NCBI RefSeq assembly: GCF_024298765.1
Contig: NZ_CP101210.1
Reading direction: 5' to 3' (one strand)
Length of the DNA: 64,000 nucleotides
Source of the DNA: Escherichia coli
GTDB taxonomy: Bacteria > Pseudomonadota > Gammaproteobacteria > Enterobacterales > Enterobacteriaceae
Shown: positions 215-9,564 of the stretch, piece by piece
Numbering within the stretch: position 1 is the stretch's first letter
How the letters are laid out: every line of letters begins with the position of its first letter
Notes under the pieces: generated by a model
Seen by the model: the letters and a program-made list of their open reading frames with translations, nothing else
The model's database searches: none
Told to the model about the DNA's origin: nothing
Translations under genes and position numbers: made by a program

Positions 215-1409
<1,195 letters not shown>

Positions 1410-2823: not shown

Positions 2824-3390
2824 ATGCCTAAATCTTACACACCAAACTGGTTTTTTACCGCTTTACTTGACAATCACATCAATCAGTTGGTCGCACGCTA
2901 TTCCCGCCTGCGGGCCTTACGCATGGATTTCTTCTACAGGAAAGATACGCCTGATTTCTTACAACCTGATCATCGCTGGCTTGAATTGCAGTTGCGTATG
3001 CTGCTGGAGCAGGTGGAACAATTTGAAAATATCGTTGGTTTCTTCTGGGTGATTGAATGGACGGCTGATCATGGTTTTCATGCGCATGCGGTTTTCTGGC
3101 TCGATCGTCAGAGGGTTAAAAAAATATATCCCTTTGCGGAGCGGATTACGGAATGCTGGCAGTCTATTACGCATAACAGCGGTTCGGCACACCGCTGTAC
3201 ATATCAGCCGCATTATACATACAACATCAACATTCCCGTGCGTCATAACGATCCCGGGAGCATCGATAATATTCGCGGTGTCCTGCATTATCTGGCGAAA
3301 GAAGAGCAAAAAGACGGACTGTGCGCATACGGTTGCAGTGAAGTTCCTGAACGACCTGCTGCAGGGCGTCCTCGTAAGCCTCACTTCTGA
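2824..3390 (+). CDS. island/prophage-associated hypothetical protein, possibly inovirus Gp2-like (YfjJ/YagK-type) family
   Basis: 188-aa ORF after a long AT-rich leader; family guess from gene context next to alpA and motif GFHAHAVFWLD; not verified. Confidence 0.4.
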   Translation: MPKSYTPNWFFTALLDNHINQLVARYSRLRALRMDFFYRKDTPDFLQPDHRWLELQLRMLLEQVEQFENIVGFFWVIEWTADHGFHAHAVFWLDRQRVKKIYPFAERITECWQSITHNSGSAHRCTYQPHYTYNINIPVRHNDPGSIDNIRGVLHYLAKEEQKDGLCAYGCSEVPERPAAGRPRKPHF

Positions 3391-3617
3391 AGCTTAAATC
3401 CTGAGCTTCCTGTCCTGGAAACATTCCGTCGGTAAAACCTTACCGCCTTGCTTAATGATGTGAACTGAAGTCAACGGAGATCATTCACTCTGAACCACAT
3501 CCGGTGTTCTGTCCCTTGTCGGTGACCTGATCTTCCCGTTCTGCCCCGGTTCTTCACTTATTCCATCAACCCCATCCGCAAACCATAACACGTCAGCTTA
3601 TTCACGGGCAGGACGCA

Positions 3618-4208
3618 TTGTGGGCTGCGCATAACGGAGCATATCTTATGAATGCTATCCCTTATTTCGACTATAGCCTGGCCCCCTTCTGGCCATCTTA
3701 TCAGAACAAAGTCATCGGCGTCCTTGAGCGTGCGCTGCGTGAGCAGTCCGGCTCACGGATACGGCGGATCCTGCTTCGTCTGCCGTGTGAATATGACAAT
3801 ACCTTCAACAGCAGAACGACCTGGTTTGGTATGGATTTTATCGAAACCGTCAGTGCGCTGATGAATGCAACACCCGGACGTGACCTTTGCTGGCTCCTGA
3901 CCCGTCATCCTGAAAAACCGGAATACCATGTGGTGCTGTGCGTCAGACAGGAGTATTTCGACGGCCCCGAACTGGATCGGTTGATTCTGGATGCCTGGAG
4001 TAACGTGCTGGGTTTCGCGTCACCAGGTGAAGCAAAGCCGTACCAGAAGCAGATCACCCGGGATGTGGTACTGGATCGCCGGTCACCGGACTGCGAAGCC
4101 CTGTTTAAGGACCTTATCTGGGCGTTCAGTGATTTCGCCCGCGATCGCCGTGGAGTGCGCGATCCGGAAGCCCGTTGCCTCGCCGGTAATCCCGGTTGGC
4201 AGTGCTGA
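3618..4208 (+). CDS. hypothetical protein (island-associated)
   Basis: 196-aa ORF in same orientation as neighbours; no family recognised. Confidence 0.35.
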   Translation: MWAAHNGAYLMNAIPYFDYSLAPFWPSYQNKVIGVLERALREQSGSRIRRILLRLPCEYDNTFNSRTTWFGMDFIETVSALMNATPGRDLCWLLTRHPEKPEYHVVLCVRQEYFDGPELDRLILDAWSNVLGFASPGEAKPYQKQITRDVVLDRRSPDCEALFKDLIWAFSDFARDRRGVRDPEARCLAGNPGWQC

Positions 4209-4276
4209 AAGCAGCATTCCATCCCATACCTCGTATTACCCCATTCTTCATCAATCTCACAGAGGATATTCTGACC

Positions 4277-4507
4277 ATGTTGACCACAATAAGCCACGAC
4301 AGCGTGTTGCTGCGTGCCGACGATCCCCTGATCGACATGAACTACATCACCAGTTTCACCGGCATGACCGATAAATGGTTTTACAGGCTGATCAGTGAAG
4401 GTCATTTCCCTAAACCCATCAAACTGGGGCGCAGCAGCCGCTGGTACAAAAGTGAAGTAGAGCAGTGGATGCAGCAGCGAATTGAGGAATCACGAGGAGC
4501 AGCATGA
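4277..4507 (+). CDS. alpA: AlpA-family phage transcriptional regulator (MerR-like HTH)
   Basis: Internal Met of ORF 4196-4507 gives ~76 aa MLTTISHDSVLL...FTGMTDKWFYRLISEGHFPKPIKLGRSSRWYKSEVEQWMQQR, typical AlpA pattern. Confidence 0.65.
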   Translation: MLTTISHDSVLLRADDPLIDMNYITSFTGMTDKWFYRLISEGHFPKPIKLGRSSRWYKSEVEQWMQQRIEESRGAA

Positions 4508-4617
4508 AACGAGTTGTGATGCCGGTACGCTGGCAATGTGCAAAATGCCGGCGCTGGTATTGCGGAAATCAGCTCTGTCCCTGGTGCTGGCGACATTACC
4601 GTTCATTTTCCTGCTGA
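4504..4617 (+). CDS. small Cys-rich (zinc-ribbon-like) protein, 37 aa, ATGA-coupled to alpA stop
   Basis: Hand translation MKRVVMPVRWQCAKCRRWYCGNQLCPWCWRHYRSFSC; CxxC and CxxC-like pairs; below ORF-track size cutoff. Confidence 0.3.
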   Translation: MKRVVMPVRWQCAKCRRWYCGNQLCPWCWRHYRSFSC

Positions 4618-4732
4618 CCCTCTCCGGTCAGCCAGCAGGTTGTAGCTCTTTCCTGACTGATTCGTTATTCCTTTCGTCCCGTCAGTCACTGGTGTTTGTA
4701 TCGTACTGTGCTGGTGTTGATGTGCGTTTTCC

Positions 4733-5275
4733 GTGTGTCTGCACCGGCTTAACAAAATTCACAGGGGTAAAATAGTGCAAATAACCGAAGCCTTACTTTC
4801 AGCGCCGGGGGAAATCCGGCGTTTTGTTCAGCAGGGGGTGGACCACTGGCCGCGTCTGCTGGCATTTCACTTCACGCTCCATTCGGCAGAAGGAAACATC
4901 AACGGGCAACAGATTCATGCATTCTGTACTTCCTTTTATGAACGTATTACTGAGCGTAATCACACGACCAGTCCATCATCGCCGGTGGTATTACGCTGGT
5001 TGCGGGAACAACATGGAGGAGCAACAATGCGATGCCTGTTGCTGCTCAGCCAGACGAGTATTTGTCACCCGCGAGCCAGTGTCACAGTTGATGAACAATG
5101 TTCGCAAGTGGTGGATTTACTGCAGCAGACCTGGCGGGGGATGGATACGGGCGGACAATGTCGGGTGGAAAGGTGTTTTCGGGTTACCCGGCCTGATACA
5201 TCAGAGCAATACGTTGCGTTAAAAACGGCTGTTCAGTCTCTGATGCCACTGGTTATTGCAACAATCATCCGGTGA
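4733..5275 (+). CDS. hypothetical protein
   Basis: 180-aa ORF; no family recognised; start uncertain. Confidence 0.3.
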   Translation: MCLHRLNKIHRGKIVQITEALLSAPGEIRRFVQQGVDHWPRLLAFHFTLHSAEGNINGQQIHAFCTSFYERITERNHTTSPSSPVVLRWLREQHGGATMRCLLLLSQTSICHPRASVTVDEQCSQVVDLLQQTWRGMDTGGQCRVERCFRVTRPDTSEQYVALKTAVQSLMPLVIATIIR

Positions 5276-5514
5276 TGACCGGGAGAAATATCGACTCTTC
5301 CGTTAATTTTTACAGACTGATAAAGTTTTGTCTGCTGAATCTTTATACGGAATTCTTTTCAGTATGCGTACACGAATTGATTATCTGGCGGATAAATACT
5401 GTTTTACAGAACTGAATGAATCGCCCCGTCTTCGCCGGCAATGGCAGGATGTCCTGGATGAGTGCCGGCAGACAGAGGCAGGGCCGGAAGAACGGTTGCG
5501 TATTGCACTGTTGA

Positions 5515-7206
5515 ATGTGGATTACGTCAGCAATGCTGAATCTGGATAAGCCTGGTGCCTGCGATCCCAGTGTGGAACGTCTGTTTGAAGGCTTTGCCTT
5601 CCTGATGGGACGTTTGCGTGAAAAGCTGGATGATGACCTGCCGGAGCTCACCGAAGGTCTGGTGAGTCTGCTGTGGCCGCACTATATGCGGACTATCCCG
5701 TCGCTGGCCATCGTTGAGTTCTCGCCTGACTGGCGTAGTCTGCGTCAGGCCGAAATACTGGCTGAAGGCTTTTCCGTTCTGTCCCGTCCTGTCGGGCCGC
5801 ATAAAACCGCCTGCCAGTACCGGGCGACCCGCGATGTGTTGCTACAACCGCTGCACCTTGCAGATGCCCGTCTCCATACTGAATCCGATGGCCGCTCTGC
5901 TATCCGTCTGCGCTTCGAATGCCCTGAAAAAGTGGACTGGAGTAAAGCCGGGATCGACAAAGTCGCCATTTTTCTTAACGCAGAGGCGCCGGTAAGTGCT
6001 GCGCTACATCTGGCAATGACCCGGCGTGTACATGCCATGTATGCGCGTCATGCCGGGACATATACCGGACGTCGTCAGTTTGACGGCTGGTGCAGACCCA
6101 TGGGCTTTGACGACAATGACTGCCTGTGGAAGAAAGCTGATACAGCCTTCAGTGGTTACCAGTTGCTGCTGGAGTATTTCAGCTTCCGTCCGAAGTTTAT
6201 GTTTGTTGAACTGCGCGGCCTCGACACCATTGGGCTCACTGCGGCCAGTACCTGGTTTGAAATCGACATTGTGCTCAGTGAAGCCTGGTCATCCGGTTTG
6301 CCTTTTGAGACAGAAAACTTCCGCCTGCACTGTGCGCCGGTTATCAATCTCTTTACCCTGGAAGCCGACCCGCTGATCCTTAACCCGCTGGATAACGAGT
6401 ACCTGCTCAGGCCGCTGCGTCTTCAGGATGGTCACACCGAAATTTACAGCGTCGATAACATTCACGGCTCGGTGAAGAACGGCAGACACCCTTATGTCCC
6501 GTTCACCAGCTTCCGGCACCGGGGCGGTATGATGCGCCACGATGCTCCTGAACGTTATTACCACACCCGTGTGAAACGGGGACCCTCCGGCCTGTATGAC
6601 ACATGGTTAGTTCTCGGGGGGCGTTCGTTCGAGCTGGAGCAGTTGTCCGATAAACCGGAGTCCCTCTCGATGCGAATCACCGCGACCAACGGGCAGCTTC
6701 CGCGCAGGGCGCTGGAAAGTACGCTCCTGGACAGGGTGGTCAAAACCGGCAAAGTCCCCGTCAGAGTCCTGAACCTGACCGCACCGACGATGCCACTGTA
6801 TCCCCCGGCAAATGACCGGTTTCACTGGCGGGTGATGAGTCACCTCGGATCAAACTTTCTCAGCATGATGGACAATCCGGAGGTGCTGCGGGGGACGCTG
6901 GCGCTCTATGACTGGACCGACGATGAAATGAACCGCCGCCGGCTTGAAGCCATCGTTGCTGTGAAGCACACCCTGATCCGCCGTTTTGAAAAGGGCTTTA
7001 TGCTCCGTGGCGTGGACATTGAGGTCACGCTGAATATGGATAATTTTGCCGGCGAGGGCGATGTGAATCTCTTCGGGGAGATGCTGCACCGTTTCTTTGC
7101 GCTCTATGCTGATGTTCACCTTTTCAACCAGCTCACACTGGTACTGCAACCCACAGGGAAACGACTGAGATGGAAAGAGAATCACAGCCAGCACGTACCG
7201 GGCTGA
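5515..7206 (+). CDS. tssF: type VI secretion baseplate subunit TssF (ImpG/VasA family), apparently lacking ~25-30 N-terminal residues
   Basis: Motif ERLFEGFAFLMGRLREKLDDDLPELTEGLVSLLWPHYMRTIPSLAIVEF is the conserved TssF N-proximal signature but sits at residue ~17; in-frame stop just upstream of 5515. Confidence 0.75.
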   Translation: MWITSAMLNLDKPGACDPSVERLFEGFAFLMGRLREKLDDDLPELTEGLVSLLWPHYMRTIPSLAIVEFSPDWRSLRQAEILAEGFSVLSRPVGPHKTACQYRATRDVLLQPLHLADARLHTESDGRSAIRLRFECPEKVDWSKAGIDKVAIFLNAEAPVSAALHLAMTRRVHAMYARHAGTYTGRRQFDGWCRPMGFDDNDCLWKKADTAFSGYQLLLEYFSFRPKFMFVELRGLDTIGLTAASTWFEIDIVLSEAWSSGLPFETENFRLHCAPVINLFTLEADPLILNPLDNEYLLRPLRLQDGHTEIYSVDNIHGSVKNGRHPYVPFTSFRHRGGMMRHDAPERYYHTRVKRGPSGLYDTWLVLGGRSFELEQLSDKPESLSMRITATNGQLPRRALESTLLDRVVKTGKVPVRVLNLTAPTMPLYPPANDRFHWRVMSHLGSNFLSMMDNPEVLRGTLALYDWTDDEMNRRRLEAIVAVKHTLIRRFEKGFMLRGVDIEVTLNMDNFAGEGDVNLFGEMLHRFFALYADVHLFNQLTLVLQPTGKRLRWKENHSQHVPG

Positions 7207-8015
7207 CGCAGGCCCTGGCCCTTAACAACGATATCTGGCGGGCCAGTTTTTATCGTTTCTGCCAGCTGCTGGAGCTGGAAAATCCGGACGGGCCAAAACT
7301 GGGCACGACCAGCCATCCGGGCGATGACCCGGTGCGATTCAGGCCCTGGCCCGGGATGGGATTCCCGGTCAGCACCCTGAAAGCGGTGGAGATCGACGAA
7401 GACCGTCCGACATTACCCCCAACGATCCGCACGACATTTCTCGGAATGTATGGGGTGGACTCACCTCTGCCGACGTCCTGGCTGGATGATATTGCGCAGC
7501 GCCGTGAAGGACATGAGGCGCTCACCTCATTTCTGGATATTTTCAGCCACCGCATCACCACCCAGTACTACCGGATCTGGCGAAAATATGCGTATCCGGC
7601 CACTTTCGAGGAGGGGGGGCGCGATGCCACATCGCAGTGTCTGCTGGGACTGGTCGGACTCGGTATACCCGGCACCGCTGAACAGGTGGCAACGCCGGTT
7701 TCCCGTTTCCTGGCCTTACTGGGTGCCATGCGATTACCCACCCGCAATGCTGAAGGCATCCGGGCTCTGGTGAGTCTGCTGGCACCGGATACCCGCGCAC
7801 TTATCACCGAACCCGATCCGGTTAAGGTCCATATCGATAACCGCAGTGGGCTGGGTGCCGGAAACCGCATCCGTCTTTCGCAGCGGGCCACGCTGGGTAA
7901 AACGGCAGGGGAAGCATGCAGCCGGCTCCTGATGACACTGGAAACAGCGGATCCGGACGAGGCGGAAGGCTGGTTGCCCACAGATAACCGGAGCAGGATT
8001 TACCGCCTTTCTTAG
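7170..8015 (+). pseudogene. tssG: type VI secretion baseplate subunit TssG (ImpH family), 3'-truncated at IS66 junction near 7970
   Basis: Overlaps tssF stop as in T6SS clusters; 281 codons versus ~330-350 expected; last ~15 codons are IS66-derived sequence read out of frame. Confidence 0.65.
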
Positions 8016-8066: not shown

Positions 8067-8849
8067 TCAACTCGCGATGGAGTAACGCCGCCAGGGGAGA
8101 TAATGCGGCACCCGCCGCGCCAACCATGTCAGCCATCGAACTGACGGGCAGCCCGACACTGAACGGGCAAAGACCTGTTGCTGGCGATACAGAGGCAGGT
8201 GGTCACCGTATTTATTGATGATCACCTGTGTGATGACTGATGGCTCAACGGCACTTTTCGGGAGGATATGTGCCGGCATTTCACCGCTGAACACCTTCTG
8301 GCAACAGGAACAACTGTATTGCGGACGGACATAACGGTTCACCACGAAGTGAACGGGAATATACTCCAGCTTTTCACTCACCGCATCACGGATATAGTGC
8401 AGCGGCTCGTCACATTCAGGGCAATGGTCAGTGTCCGGCTGGATAATTTTTTCCACCCGTGGAAGATGAGCCGGTAAGGGTTTGCGTATCGGGCGTGAAC
8501 GGGACGCTTTTTCGTCTTCTTCAGGGGATTGCGGGAGCAGTTTATCCAGATGTGCGGTAAGCGCGGCGATATCGACATCAACATCCTCTTCGAACAGGGA
8601 GCGTTGCATACCAGCCAGCGTTTCACATTTTTTACCGAAGCGCTGTTGACGAACCAGTTTCAGCATTTCTTCCAGAAGCTGGATGCGCCGGCTTTTCTCC
8701 AGTAATTCCCGCTCTTTTTCGGCATTCTCCGACATGACTTTTTGTACCATGGTAAGTGCCATAGCACGCAGTTTTTCGATGTCATTCGTGGTGTTGAGAG
8801 CGGAGATATCCATACAGGGGAGTATACCACTCCAGATACGGATATTCAT
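8067..8849 (-). pseudogene. tnpC: IS66-family transposase TnpC, N-terminal portion (frameshift near 8140)
   Basis: 260-aa ORF with coiled-coil N-terminus, CPECDEPLHYI zinc motif and HLPLYRQQQVFAR, as in IS66 TnpC. Confidence 0.7.
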
Positions 8850-8855
8850 TATTTT

Positions 8856-9248
8856 TCACTGAGTTAGCAGTGTATTTTGCGTGTTTTCAGGGCGCAGTTC
8901 AGGTTCATTCTGCCAGCCCCATTTCGTCAGGTCATGTCCCTTAACCTGCTGCCAGTCAACACCGGCAATCAGCCAGTTAAACTCGTCGGGAGTTAGGTGC
9001 CAGGCAGCATCATTTGCACGTGGCCAGCGGAAGCTGCCTTTGTGCAGACGGCGGGTACACAACCACACCCCGTGTTTATCCCACCGGAGAACTTTGATAC
9101 GCGAACGGACTTTGTTAACAAAGACGAAGGCGGCTCCCTCATGCCATGTCGACCGGAGTTCATCCTGTATATACTGCGTCAGTGTGTCGATGCCCCGGCG
9201 CATGTCAACAGGTTTAATCGCGATGAAGACATTATCAGGACTGAGCAT
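8856..9248 (-). CDS. tnpB: IS66-family TnpB
   Basis: Internal start MLSPDNVFIAIKPVDMRRGIDTL... of ORF 8856-9542 matches IS66 orf2 pattern. Confidence 0.7.
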   Translation of the reverse strand: MLSPDNVFIAIKPVDMRRGIDTLTQYIQDELRSTWHEGAAFVFVNKVRSRIKVLRWDKHGVWLCTRRLHKGSFRWPRANDAAWHLTPDEFNWLIAGVDWQQVKGHDLTKWGWQNEPELRPENTQNTLLTQ

Positions 9249-9564
9249 ATTTGAGCGCCCTGAAGACATCGGTAAGTTGTGACGGCTGACAGCACATCCG
9301 TACTCCGCCGGGAAGGAAGAGCGTGACTGGCTCATTCGTGACGGGCTGTGGTACATCAGCATGCAGTGGTGGCGCAATATGAACGGGAAGAACGGTCGGT
9401 TCATTTGCCCGGCGTTCAGCTTTTGCGACATCCTGCGGCCATTCGCGAAGTGATGTGAAGGGAATATCGTTGAGTTCACAGTATTGCTGACGTGTAAGAC
9501 CACTGGCGCGCCAGGCAGCAACGTGCTGCCTTTTCTGTTCAATGGTCCATCGGGGTTTTGACAT
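9235..9564 (-). CDS. tnpA: IS66-family accessory protein TnpA
   Basis: 109-aa ORF immediately upstream of and overlapping tnpB in IS66 order. Confidence 0.55.
   Translation of the reverse strand: MSKPRWTIEQKRQHVAAWRASGLTRQQYCELNDIPFTSLREWPQDVAKAERRANEPTVLPVHIAPPLHADVPQPVTNEPVTLFLPGGVRMCCQPSQLTDVFRALKYAQS

What the first reader, a model, noticed from the sequence alone, without database searches (positions are those of the whole stretch)
4504..4617. Unannotated 37-codon Cys-rich ORF translationally coupled to alpA
ATG overlaps the alpA stop (ATGA). The product MKRVVMPVRWQCAKCRRWYCGNQLCPWCWRHYRSFSC has spaced Cys pairs like a zinc ribbon. Small proteins after alpA may be regulatory partners and are routinely missed by ORF callers.
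Basis: seen in the sequence. Interest (0 to 1): 0.35.

Follow-up and report, generated by a model that had tools for sequence, protein, structure and literature searches.

The report
Missed small zinc-ribbon gene after alpA
A 37-codon reading frame that starts on the stop codon of an AlpA-type island regulator is a real, evolutionarily conserved gene for a tiny cysteine-rich zinc-ribbon protein; gene callers almost always miss it, and its function is still unknown.

Summary
The ORF is at 4504-4617 (+), as described. Its ATG overlaps the stop of an AlpA-family gene (ATGA), and a GAGGAG Shine-Dalgarno lies 4 nt upstream.

The sequence alone is not significant: about 0.27 such CxxC...CxxC ORFs are expected per random window. 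The comparative evidence settles it.
- A small ORF with the motif W-x-C-x2-C-x3-[YF]-x-G-x3-C-P-x-C follows alpA in at least 8 other enterobacterial genera, with its own start and SD in four lineages.
- Synonymous change is near saturation (pS 0.5-0.9, pN 0.11-0.38).
- Among 14 distinct E. coli copies, pN/pS is 0.16 in this frame and 1.59 and 0.79 in the other two.

Only codons 1-30 are conserved. The family is a stand-alone relative of the Pfam Zn_ribbon_11 domain (hhalign 93%, E 3e-7), which sits at the C-terminus of DUF7828 proteins in the same islands.

The exact 37-aa sequences are absent from 15 billion predicted proteins. PGAP sometimes calls an unselected alternative frame instead. About a quarter of E. 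coli copies carry a 26-nt deletion between direct repeats that destroys the gene.

Natural in-frame AlpA-ribbon fusions and conserved gene order suggest it works with AlpA. That role is inferred, not shown.

The parts
4504..4617 (+). Small zinc-ribbon gene, 37 codons plus stop
   Evidence: ORF listed. It is conserved after alpA in other genera. pN/pS is 0.16 within E. coli, and pS greatly exceeds pN between genera.
4504..4593 (+). Conserved core, codons 1-30 (MKRVVMPVRWQCAKCRRWYCGNQLCPWCWR). Invariant Cys12 (4537-4539), Cys15 (4546-4548), Cys25 (4576-4578) and Cys28 (4585-4587); near-invariant Cys20 (4561-4563).
   Evidence: Alignments A2 and A3 give invariant P7, W10, C12, C15, R17, G21, C25, P26 and C28. 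Tails after codon 30 differ or are frameshifted among E. coli copies. The AF2 model has a beta-hairpin (9-11, 18-20) and a helix (26-35), pLDDT 73.
4494..4499 (+). Shine-Dalgarno GAGGAG, 4 nt before the ATG and inside the alpA 3' end
   Evidence: Read. Orthologs in four other lineages also have an SD-like purine run, mostly 8-9 nt before their ATG.
4277..4507 (+). AlpA-family HTH regulator gene. Its stop TGA 4505-4507 overlaps the small gene's ATG.
   Evidence: Pfam PF05930 at E 1.2e-10, above the cutoff. RefSeq annotates it as WP_001389194.1.
4519..4551 (+). Two direct repeats ATGCCGG (4519-4525 and 4545-4551), 26 nt apart. Their position and spacing match the common 26-nt deletion that removes Cys12 and Cys15 and shifts the frame.
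   Evidence: Repeats read. The deletion is seen in L003. About 23% of sampled E. coli records match only from query position 48 onward. The hybrid product WP_001342704.1 is on at least 1000 contigs.
4536..4775 (+). Alternative-frame ORF (MCKMPALVLRKSALSLVLATLPFIFLL...), which PGAP annotates in some genomes. Judged not to be a gene.
   Evidence: It is annotated as WP_000335228.1 in strain c1-17, on sequence identical over the 124-nt query (window 4497-4620), and as WP_153275897.1 in N21. pN/pS is 1.59 over the shared 90 nt. It has stops or no conservation in other genera and in some E. coli copies.
2824..3390 (+). YagK/YfjJ-family (inovirus Gp2 / REP_ORF2-G2P-like) gene, first gene of the conserved module
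   Evidence: Pfam PF11726 at 2.6e-6. The same order, YagK/YfjJ then AlpA then small ribbon, is seen in L067 and L068.
3618..4208 (+). Hypothetical gene between yagK-like and alpA (RefSeq start at about 3648)
   Evidence: No significant family match.
4775..5275 (+). Downstream same-strand gene of 166 aa (WP_001167446.1), 157 nt after the small gene. Its homolog is labelled 'UCP030791 family' or 'YagK/YfjJ domain-containing' in other genomes.

Best explanation
Positions 4504-4617 are a genuine protein-coding gene. Its product is a very small, very basic zinc-ribbon protein: 37 aa, net charge about +8, no acidic residues, four Trp.

The functional unit is the first 30 residues. Two Cys pairs are placed to hold one zinc ion: C12-x2-C15 on a beta-hairpin and C25-P-x-C28 at the start of a helix.

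It is transcribed with the AlpA-family regulator immediately upstream. It is probably translated by ribosomes that finish alpA and restart at the overlapping ATGA, helped by a GAGGAG Shine-Dalgarno, so the two proteins come from one message.

It is a stand-alone relative of the Zn_ribbon_11 domain, which forms the C-terminus of DUF7828 proteins in the same island family.

The most likely role is as an accessory to AlpA. It would bind AlpA itself, or the nucleic acid or RNA polymerase that AlpA acts on, and so tune AlpA-dependent transcription or excision of the chromosomal island.

Shown here:
- The ORF, its overlap with alpA and its SD.
- Conservation and purifying selection.
- Homology to Zn_ribbon_11.
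- Linkage to alpA.
- Natural AlpA-ribbon fusions.

Inferred:
- Translation and coupling.
- Zinc binding.
- The fold details.
- The partner role, about 0.35-0.4 on its own.
For: 1. A Cys-frame homolog follows alpA in Siccibacter, Yokenella, Hafnia, Kosakonia, Rosenbergiella, Superficieibacter, Tenebrionibacter and Citrobacter-like genomes. tblastn E-values run from 1e-6 to 1e-10 against a small local database, while the DNA is barely alignable.
2. Between genera pS is 0.5-0.9 and pN 0.11-0.38. The shifted frames give ratios of about 1 or more. Mean amino-acid identity is 66%, against 42-44% in the other frames, at 68% nucleotide identity.
3. Among 14 distinct E. coli copies pN/pS is 0.16, against 1.59 and 0.79 in the other frames. 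Thirteen of 22 variable sites are third positions, binomial P = 0.012.
4. An ATG with an SD-like purine run upstream is kept in four further lineages. Spacing to the alpA stop is: TGATG overlap, +6, +18, and +115 to +119 nt.
5. hhalign of the small-ORF family against the C-terminal ribbon of DUF7828 proteins gives 93% probability, E 3e-7. Those proteins match PF11682 at 1e-12 to 1e-15. Distant orthologs carry precomputed PF11682 hits and the NCBI name 'putative zinc ribbon protein'.
6. Stand-alone members P0035 and P0042 also sit directly after a Phage_AlpA gene and a YagK/YfjJ gene, and P0035 is followed by DUF7828 / Zn_ribbon_11 genes (also 53).
7. In-frame AlpA-ribbon fusion proteins occur in E. 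coli (P0057, P0058, P0076) and in another genus (P0037).
8. AF2 predicts a beta-hairpin plus helix at pLDDT 73.
9. A small protein that binds an AlpA regulator and blocks its DNA binding has a precedent: YgfB in P. aeruginosa (PMC9998450).
Against: - No expression or translation data were found. The peptide is not in the text or held supplements of the Sakai Ribo-seq paper.
- About 23% of sampled E. coli records carry the 26-nt deletion, and a further 5% or so are truncated. Two of 17 non-deleted copies have C15Y.
- Copies in Rosenbergiella (frameshift), Kosakonia (no canonical start), Entomohabitans (stop) and Serratia microhaemolytica (lost Cys) look degenerate. The gene is therefore dispensable and often decaying.
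- The 37-mer has no Pfam or NCBIfam hit. The 44-aa ortholog scores 13.1 bits against PF11682, below the 24-bit cutoff.
- AF2 of concatenated AlpA+ribbon gives pTM 0.52. That neither supports nor excludes docking.
- Loci for the between-genus dN/dS were partly picked by the motif, which fixes 7 of 24 residues.
- Some fusions could be sequencing errors.
Confidence: 0.7

Rival explanations
1. It is a decaying relic, not a working gene. On this view the ORF is the leftover C-terminal ribbon of a once longer Zn_ribbon_11 or AlpA-fusion gene. It still looks conserved because the islands are young and exchange sequence, and it has no function today in E. coli.
For: - The 26-nt deletion is frequent (about 23%), and the hybrid ORF is on at least 1000 contigs.
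- There are C15Y variants, frameshifted tails and a stop right after codon 30 in some copies.
- Copies in four other genera are degenerate.
- The surrounding island is full of pseudogenes and IS elements.
Against: - pN/pS is 0.16 among E. coli copies at pS = 0.22. That is real divergence with amino-acid conservation.
- Synonymous sites are saturated between genera while the motif is kept.
- Start and SD are retained independently in several lineages.
- All 17 non-deleted E. coli-type copies sampled keep the ATG and an open 30-codon core.
Confidence: 0.15
2. The real gene is the alternative frame: the hydrophobic peptide MCKMPALVLRKSALSLVLATLPFIFLL... at 4536-4775, or its hybrids, as PGAP annotates in some genomes. 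It would be a small membrane protein.
For: - RefSeq annotates it as WP_000335228.1, WP_153275897.1 and WP_001342704.1.
- It has a hydrophobic stretch, and the frame is open in many E. coli copies.
- The clusters are seen on hundreds to more than 1000 contigs.
Against: - pN/pS is 1.59 in that frame over the shared 90 nt.
- Its length and end vary with indels, and it has stops in L002, L053 and L060.
- Other genera show stops and no similarity.
- Between genera its frame shows pN at or above pS.
Confidence: 0.04
3. The act of translating the ORF is what matters, not the peptide. It would be a coupling or leader cistron that carries ribosomes from alpA toward the downstream gene at 4775, or that modulates termination in the 157-nt spacer.
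For: - The stop/start overlap with alpA.
- A weak terminator-like hairpin at 4680-4694 between the ORF and the next gene.
- The variable C-terminal tail and variable stop position.
Against: - A leader role does not need invariant W, four Cys, G and P kept over saturated synonymous divergence.
- The downstream gene differs between E. coli (UCP030791-like) and other genera (DUF7828), yet the peptide is kept.
- RNA folding is unremarkable (z = -1.6) and there is no Rfam match.
Confidence: 0.06
4. It is a chance ORF with no biological meaning.
For: About 0.27 CxxC...CxxC ORFs of this size are expected per random window. Gene callers do not call it.
Against: All the comparative evidence above.
Confidence: 0.02

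Closest known systems
Pfam PF11682 Zn_ribbon_11 ('Probable zinc-ribbon'), the C-terminal domain of DUF7828 (PF25165) proteins
   Same: It has the same motif, W-x-C-x2-C-x3-[YW]-x-G-x3-C-x2-C, with hhalign probability 93% and E 3e-7. It is found in the same island family, often 0.2-1 kb downstream of the small gene. It is likewise uncharacterised: no papers and no solved structures.
   Different: The small protein stands alone, with no DUF7828 domain. It has a basic N-terminal tail and an extra conserved Cys (YCG instead of YxG), and it always sits directly after alpA. The E. coli 37-mer does not reach the Pfam threshold.
NCBI 'putative zinc ribbon protein' WP_451923538.1 (Tenebrionicola larvae, 52 aa) and the Dryocola clanedunensis homolog (P0080)
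   Same: These are orthologous stand-alone small proteins and the top hits of the family profile, E 2e-17 and 2e-14. The first is encoded 115 nt after an alpA homolog in L029.
   Different: They share only about 32-43% identity. They have a longer acidic or neutral C-terminal tail, FGG instead of YCG, and no overlap with the alpA stop.
YgfB, a protein that binds the antiterminator AlpA in Pseudomonas aeruginosa (PMC9998450)
   Same: It is a precedent for a separate protein that binds an AlpA-family regulator and changes its DNA binding. That is the kind of role proposed here.
   Different: It is unrelated in sequence and not a zinc ribbon, is not encoded next to alpA, and P. aeruginosa AlpA is only a distant relative. 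This is an analogy of mechanism only and was not tested here.
Small Cys4 zinc-finger transcription factors of P2/P4-type elements (Ogr, Delta). Recalled from general knowledge, not tested here.
   Same: They are small, basic, zinc-binding regulators encoded by mobile elements that also carry AlpA/Vis-type proteins.
   Different: They are about twice as long with different Cys spacing. No similarity was detected with PHROGs or Pfam. The gene is absent from 50,697 phage records.

Membership tests
Pfam PF11682 Zn_ribbon_11 | HMM score at or above the gathering threshold (24 bits) | tested here: not met
   The 37-mer has no hit at E <= 1. The 44-aa Yokenella ortholog scores 13.1 bits, E 0.075. More distant orthologs P0001, P0080 and P0042 do carry precomputed PF11682 hits, P0042's marked weak.
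Pfam PF11682 Zn_ribbon_11 | Motif W-x-C-x2-C ... G-x3-C-x2-C and profile-level homology | tested here: met
   W, both Cys pairs and G are invariant in both alignments. hhalign gives 93% probability, E 3e-7, over 33 columns.
Pfam PF11682 Zn_ribbon_11 | Usual architecture: C-terminal to a DUF7828 domain in a protein of 130-150 aa | tested here: not met
   The product is a stand-alone 37-61 aa protein. The DUF7828 proteins are separate downstream genes.
Zinc ribbon / treble-clef zinc-binding fold (general) | Four zinc ligands in two knuckles, with zinc actually bound | not testable with these tools
   The sequence has C12-x2-C15 and C25-x2-C28, all invariant. AF2 gives a hairpin plus helix at pLDDT 73. 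Foldseek against the PDB finds nothing significant; the best E is 1.4, to ribosomal zinc-ribbon proteins. Metal binding needs an experiment.
AlpA-linked small ribbon family (defined here) | Encoded on the same strand directly 3' of an AlpA-family gene, itself preceded by a YagK/YfjJ gene | tested here: met
   True for the window, the E. coli copies, the other genera and the independently retrieved P0035, P0042 and P0037.
Translationally coupled gene pair | Stop/start overlap with an SD inside the upstream gene | tested here: met
   ATGA at 4504-4507 and GAGGAG at 4494-4499. A TGATG overlap is seen in L007, L009 and L019. Actual coupling, meaning dependence on alpA translation, cannot be tested here.
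Pfam PF05930 Phage_AlpA (the upstream neighbour) | HMM score above the gathering threshold | tested here: met
   41.6 bits against 21, E 1.2e-10. PHROG 'excisionase and transcriptional regulator' at 4.6e-10.

The most novel reading that the evidence does not exclude
The mini zinc ribbon is an obligatory second subunit of this clade of AlpA regulators. The real regulator of these chromosomal islands would then be a two-piece AlpA-ribbon complex, made in fixed ratio by translational coupling and occasionally fused into one chain. Its ribbon would contact RNA polymerase or nucleic acid to switch island transcription or excision. The DUF7828-Zn_ribbon_11 proteins downstream would use the same ribbon to plug into the same partner.
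Probability: 0.25. Interest if true: 0.6.

Novelty: new variant of a known kind. Interest (0 to 1): 0.45.

Why it matters
DNA matching the gene is present in about half of complete E. coli genomes: 2578 of 5426, including O157:H7, UPEC and APEC strains. It is absent from 15 billion predicted proteins in its common 37-aa form. RefSeq sometimes annotates an overlapping frame that shows no sign of selection.

This is a clean case of a conserved bacterial microprotein lost to annotation, and it could be used to correct annotations. It also adds a candidate cofactor to AlpA-type regulators, which control excision and gene expression of pathogenicity islands and phage satellites.

Function remains unknown, so the importance is moderate. 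The gene is absent from the three CP4 prophages checked in K-12 MG1655, which could explain why K-12 small-protein surveys have not reported it.

Tried and rejected
- **Annotation libraries.** Pfam, NCBIfam, PHROGs and PADLOC on the 37-mer gave nothing significant. The only hit was phrog_24876 at E 0.011, of unknown function.
- **RNA element.** Rfam on 3500-5500 gave no match. RNA folding of 4480-4700 gave z = -1.6, so an RNA element does not explain the conservation.
- **Promoters and terminators.** The scan gave counts at the level of shuffled sequence.
- **Structure searches.** Foldseek of the AF2 model against the PDB gave no E below 1. A sequence-profile search of the PDB gave nothing below E 0.45. 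A DUF7828 protein also has no solved relative.
- **AlpA-ribbon docking.** AF2 of a concatenated AlpA+ribbon chain gave pTM 0.52, with the ribbon's pLDDT about the same as when modelled alone. No PAE is available, so this says nothing about docking.
- **Literature.** A full-text search for the peptide, Zn_ribbon_11, DUF3279, DUF7828 and PF11682 found 0 papers.
- **Ribo-seq.** The supplements of the Sakai Ribo-seq paper contain neither the peptide nor the DNA string. I tried to find the Sakai coordinates by guessing two regions and missed both times, so that dataset could not be checked by coordinate.
- **K-12.** MG1655 CP4-6, CP4-44 and CP4-57 have no copy. KpLE2 was not checked.
- **Phages and plasmids.** The phage collection gave no match. 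Plasmids gave 8 records, several of which look like chromosomal pieces.
- **Programmed frameshift.** A frameshift fusing alpA to the ribbon was considered and dropped. The ribbon frame is open for only 18 nt upstream of the ATG (4486-4503), and no slippery heptamer is visible there.

Full report
**1. The observation**

It runs from ATG 4504 to TGA 4617 on the + strand: 37 codons, MKRVVMPVRWQCAKCRRWYCGNQLCPWCWRHYRSFSC.

The gene upstream, 4277-4507, is an AlpA-family helix-turn-helix regulator. It matches Pfam Phage_AlpA at 41.6 bits against a cutoff of 21, E 1.2e-10. Its TGA stop shares two bases with the ORF's ATG (ATGA). A GAGGAG Shine-Dalgarno sits at 4494-4499, 4 nt before the ATG.

A 531-nt query around the ORF (window 4250-4780) is 100% identical to the E. 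coli strain 165 chromosome, and RefSeq has no feature on the ORF there.

The sequence alone does not make the case. Random sequences with the window's dinucleotide make-up give 0.27 ATG-ORFs of 30-80 aa with CxxC-x(5-20)-CxxC per 64 kb; one is observed.

**2. Conservation outside E. coli**

I fetched 44 loci encoding relatives of this AlpA from one genome per species. A local tblastn with the 37-mer found a homolog directly after alpA in loci from many genera:
- Enterobacteriaceae RIT691 and a Citrobacter-labelled genome
- Siccibacter, Yokenella, Hafnia, Superficieibacter
- Kosakonia, Rosenbergiella, Tenebrionibacter

A typical product is MEKRRRTQPWKIPPRWTCARCQRRYCGAGPCPVCFRPSGTPAQP. The alternative frames are not conserved and contain stops.

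The aligned family has these invariant positions, numbered on the E. coli protein: P7, W10, C12, C15, R17, G21, C25, P26 and C28. R9, Y19, C20 and P24 are nearly invariant.

Over the 24-codon core in 10 distinct sequences:

| Measure | Value |
|---|---|
| Nucleotide identity | 68% |
| Amino-acid identity, Cys frame | 66% |
| Amino-acid identity, other two frames | 42% and 44% |

Nei-Gojobori estimates give pS 0.5-0.9 (near saturation) against pN 0.11-0.38 in the Cys frame. The shifted frames give pN at or above pS.

One caveat applies. Part of this locus set was recognised through the motif, which fixes 7 of the 24 residues. The tblastn hits, the position after alpA and the remaining conserved residues are independent of that choice.

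Four lineages keep an ATG with an SD-like purine run upstream, mostly 8-9 nt before the ATG. Their spacing to the alpA stop is a TGATG overlap, +6, +18, and +115 to +119 nt.

Some copies look dead:
- Rosenbergiella: the start is out of frame.
- Kosakonia: no canonical start.
- Entomohabitans: an internal stop.
- Serratia microhaemolytica: a lost Cys.

**3. Conservation within E. coli**

A blastn of the ORF against 5426 complete genomes finds it in 2578. In an evenly spaced sample of 60 records:

| Outcome | Records | Share |
|---|---|---|
| Match full length | 43 | 72% |
| Match only from query position 48 | 14 | 23% |
| Truncated at the 3' end | 3 | 5% |

The 23% class, matching only from query position 48, fits the 26-nt deletion seen in L003. 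The deleted stretch matches the spacing of two ATGCCGG direct repeats at 4519-4525 and 4545-4551. It removes C12 and C15 and shifts the frame.

I read 17 copies without that deletion, spanning 86-100% identity and including O157:H7. All keep the ATG and an open 30-codon core. Two have C15Y. Two end right after codon 30 because of a 4-nt insertion. The tails after codon 30 differ widely.

Among the 14 distinct 90-nt cores:

| Frame | pS | pN | pN/pS |
|---|---|---|---|
| Cys frame | 0.220 | 0.035 | 0.16 |
| Shifted +1 | 0.050 | 0.079 | 1.59 |
| Shifted +2 | 0.085 | 0.067 | 0.79 |

Thirteen of 22 variable sites are third codon positions, binomial P = 0.012.

So the first 30 codons are under purifying selection in this frame. 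The last 7 are not.

**4. What it is related to**

In the non-E. coli loci the same motif forms the C-terminus of 130-150-aa proteins encoded a few hundred bases downstream, often as two tandem paralogs. These proteins match Pfam DUF7828 (1e-29 to 1e-30) plus Zn_ribbon_11, PF11682 (7e-12 to 1e-15).

A profile-profile comparison of the small-ORF family with those C-terminal domains gives 93% probability, E 3e-7.

The E. coli 37-mer has no Pfam or NCBIfam hit, and the 44-aa ortholog scores 13.1 bits, below the cutoff. I therefore treat the family as a stand-alone sister of PF11682, not as a member.

AlphaFold2 with the 18-sequence alignment predicts strands 9-11 and 18-20 and a helix 26-35, mean pLDDT 73. 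That places the first Cys pair on a hairpin and the second at a helix start.

Fold and sequence searches of the PDB found nothing significant. No paper mentions the peptide or these Pfam names.

The protein has 8 Lys+Arg, no Asp or Glu, four Trp and a pI of 9.9. The orthologs are similar.

**5. Annotation status**

- The window's 37-aa sequence and six other E. coli 37-aa variants are absent from a 15-billion-protein collection.
- A profile search of 1.84 billion cluster representatives finds only 25 relatives. A search of 5.8 billion clusters finds 21, each on a handful of contigs.
- Two of those are named 'putative zinc ribbon protein' (Tenebrionicola, Dryocola). The E. coli ones are odd long-tailed or frameshifted versions named 'hypothetical protein'.
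- PGAP more often calls an overlapping frame instead. Examples are a 79-aa ORF on sequence identical over the 124-nt query (WP_000335228.1), a 50-aa version (WP_153275897.1), and a 41-aa hybrid on the 26-nt-deleted allele (WP_001342704.1, at least 1000 contigs).
- That overlapping frame shows no selection and is not conserved elsewhere.

**6. Link to AlpA and likely function**

Every copy examined lies on the same strand directly after an AlpA-family gene, which usually follows a YagK/YfjJ (inovirus Gp2-like) gene. Two distant stand-alone members, retrieved independently through the profile search, have the same arrangement.

AlpA homologs below about 66% identity (Gilliamella, Serratia, Pectobacterium and others) lack the adjacent small gene.

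In-frame AlpA-ribbon fusion proteins exist in three E. coli records and in one metagenomic contig from a different lineage. Fusion of two separately encoded proteins is a classical hint that they act together, but some of these could be sequencing errors.

AlpA-family proteins act as excision or transcription regulators. In P. aeruginosa, AlpA acts as an RNA-polymerase-bound antiterminator (PMC7969949, PMC9371919). Its activity is blocked by a separate binding protein, YgfB (PMC9998450).

The most likely reading is that this small, basic zinc ribbon is made together with AlpA and modulates what AlpA does, by binding AlpA, the DNA or RNA, or the polymerase. This step is inference. An AF2 model of the concatenated pair was uninformative (pTM 0.52).

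**7. Setting**

The module sits in a CP4-type chromosomal island. The backbone carries an integrase, ParDE, CbtA/YeeU, RadC-like, antirestriction, DUF932 and a YeeP-like GTPase, with IS elements and broken type VI secretion genes next to it.

The gene is absent from 50,697 phage records and almost absent from plasmids. It is also absent from the three CP4 prophages of K-12 MG1655.

**8. Verdict**

This is a real, conserved and almost universally unannotated microprotein gene, a stand-alone variant of an uncharacterised zinc-ribbon domain, tightly linked to AlpA. It is dispensable and often degraded in E. coli.

Function, zinc binding and translation remain to be shown. Interest is moderate.

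Noticed in passing
window 4536-4775 (+); L004 1793-1945; L003 1758-1883; L071 640-879: RefSeq/PGAP annotates an overlapping hydrophobic ORF (WP_000335228.1, WP_153275897.1) or a deletion hybrid (WP_001342704.1) here in many E. coli genomes. This frame has pN/pS of 1.59 and is not conserved in other genera, so these look like spurious gene calls that have propagated.
   Followed up: yes
window 4519-4525 and 4545-4551: Two ATGCCGG direct repeats 26 nt apart match the position and length of the common 26-nt deletion allele. Their spacing suggests replication slippage, possibly recurrent. Whether the deletion arose once or many times was not tested.
   Followed up: partly
L010-L018 (e.g. L011 2988-3410 and 3398-3817), L063 457-1333, L068 3766-4553: In other genera the small gene is followed by one or two tandem DUF7828 + Zn_ribbon_11 genes whose ends overlap. 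In L063 a DUF2913 gene comes next. The whole module is uncharacterised, with no papers, no PDB relatives and no PADLOC hits.
   Followed up: partly
P0057, P0058, P0076 (E. coli); P0037 / L063 30-320: In-frame AlpA-zinc-ribbon fusion proteins of 96-128 aa occur naturally. In E. coli the junction lies in the GGAGCAGCAGCA run at the alpA 3' end. I did not check whether they are real alleles or sequencing errors.
   Followed up: partly
L055 2258-2620 (E. coli O157:H7 strain 9234): In O157:H7 the alpA gene has a different, shortened C-terminus and ends about 50 nt before the small ORF. The small ORF itself is intact (MKRVVMPVRWQCAKCQRWYCGTRPCPWCWRYSRSSSC) and nothing is annotated over it.
   Followed up: partly
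window 361-1341 (-) compared with NZ_CP020509.1 845553-846257: The window carries an IS5-type transposase ORF of 326 aa near its start. Strain 165 is identical around the finding but has a TIR-domain gene annotated at the corresponding distance upstream. The window therefore comes from a related but different genome or island arrangement.
   Followed up: no
window 5515-8015 (+), 8067-9564 (-): Type VI secretion baseplate genes tssF and tssG are present as truncated or frameshifted fragments cut off by IS66-family elements, according to the strain 165 annotation.
   Followed up: no
L006 (labelled Collinsella sp. MAG), L019 (labelled Chryseobacterium sp.): Contigs filed under non-enterobacterial names carry near-identical enterobacterial alpA / zinc-ribbon modules. 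L006 is identical to the O157:H7 allele over the 90-nt core. This is probably contamination or mis-binning in those assemblies.
   Followed up: no
L021 1594-2139, L025 4046-4456, L027 3929-4468, L036 4360-4794: AlpA loci that lack the adjacent small gene still encode, 1.5-2 kb away or upstream, 136-181-aa proteins ending in a related ribbon (WxCCxC...G...CPxC) with weak Zn_ribbon_11 and DUF7828 hits. The ribbon is a recurring part of these islands.
   Followed up: partly
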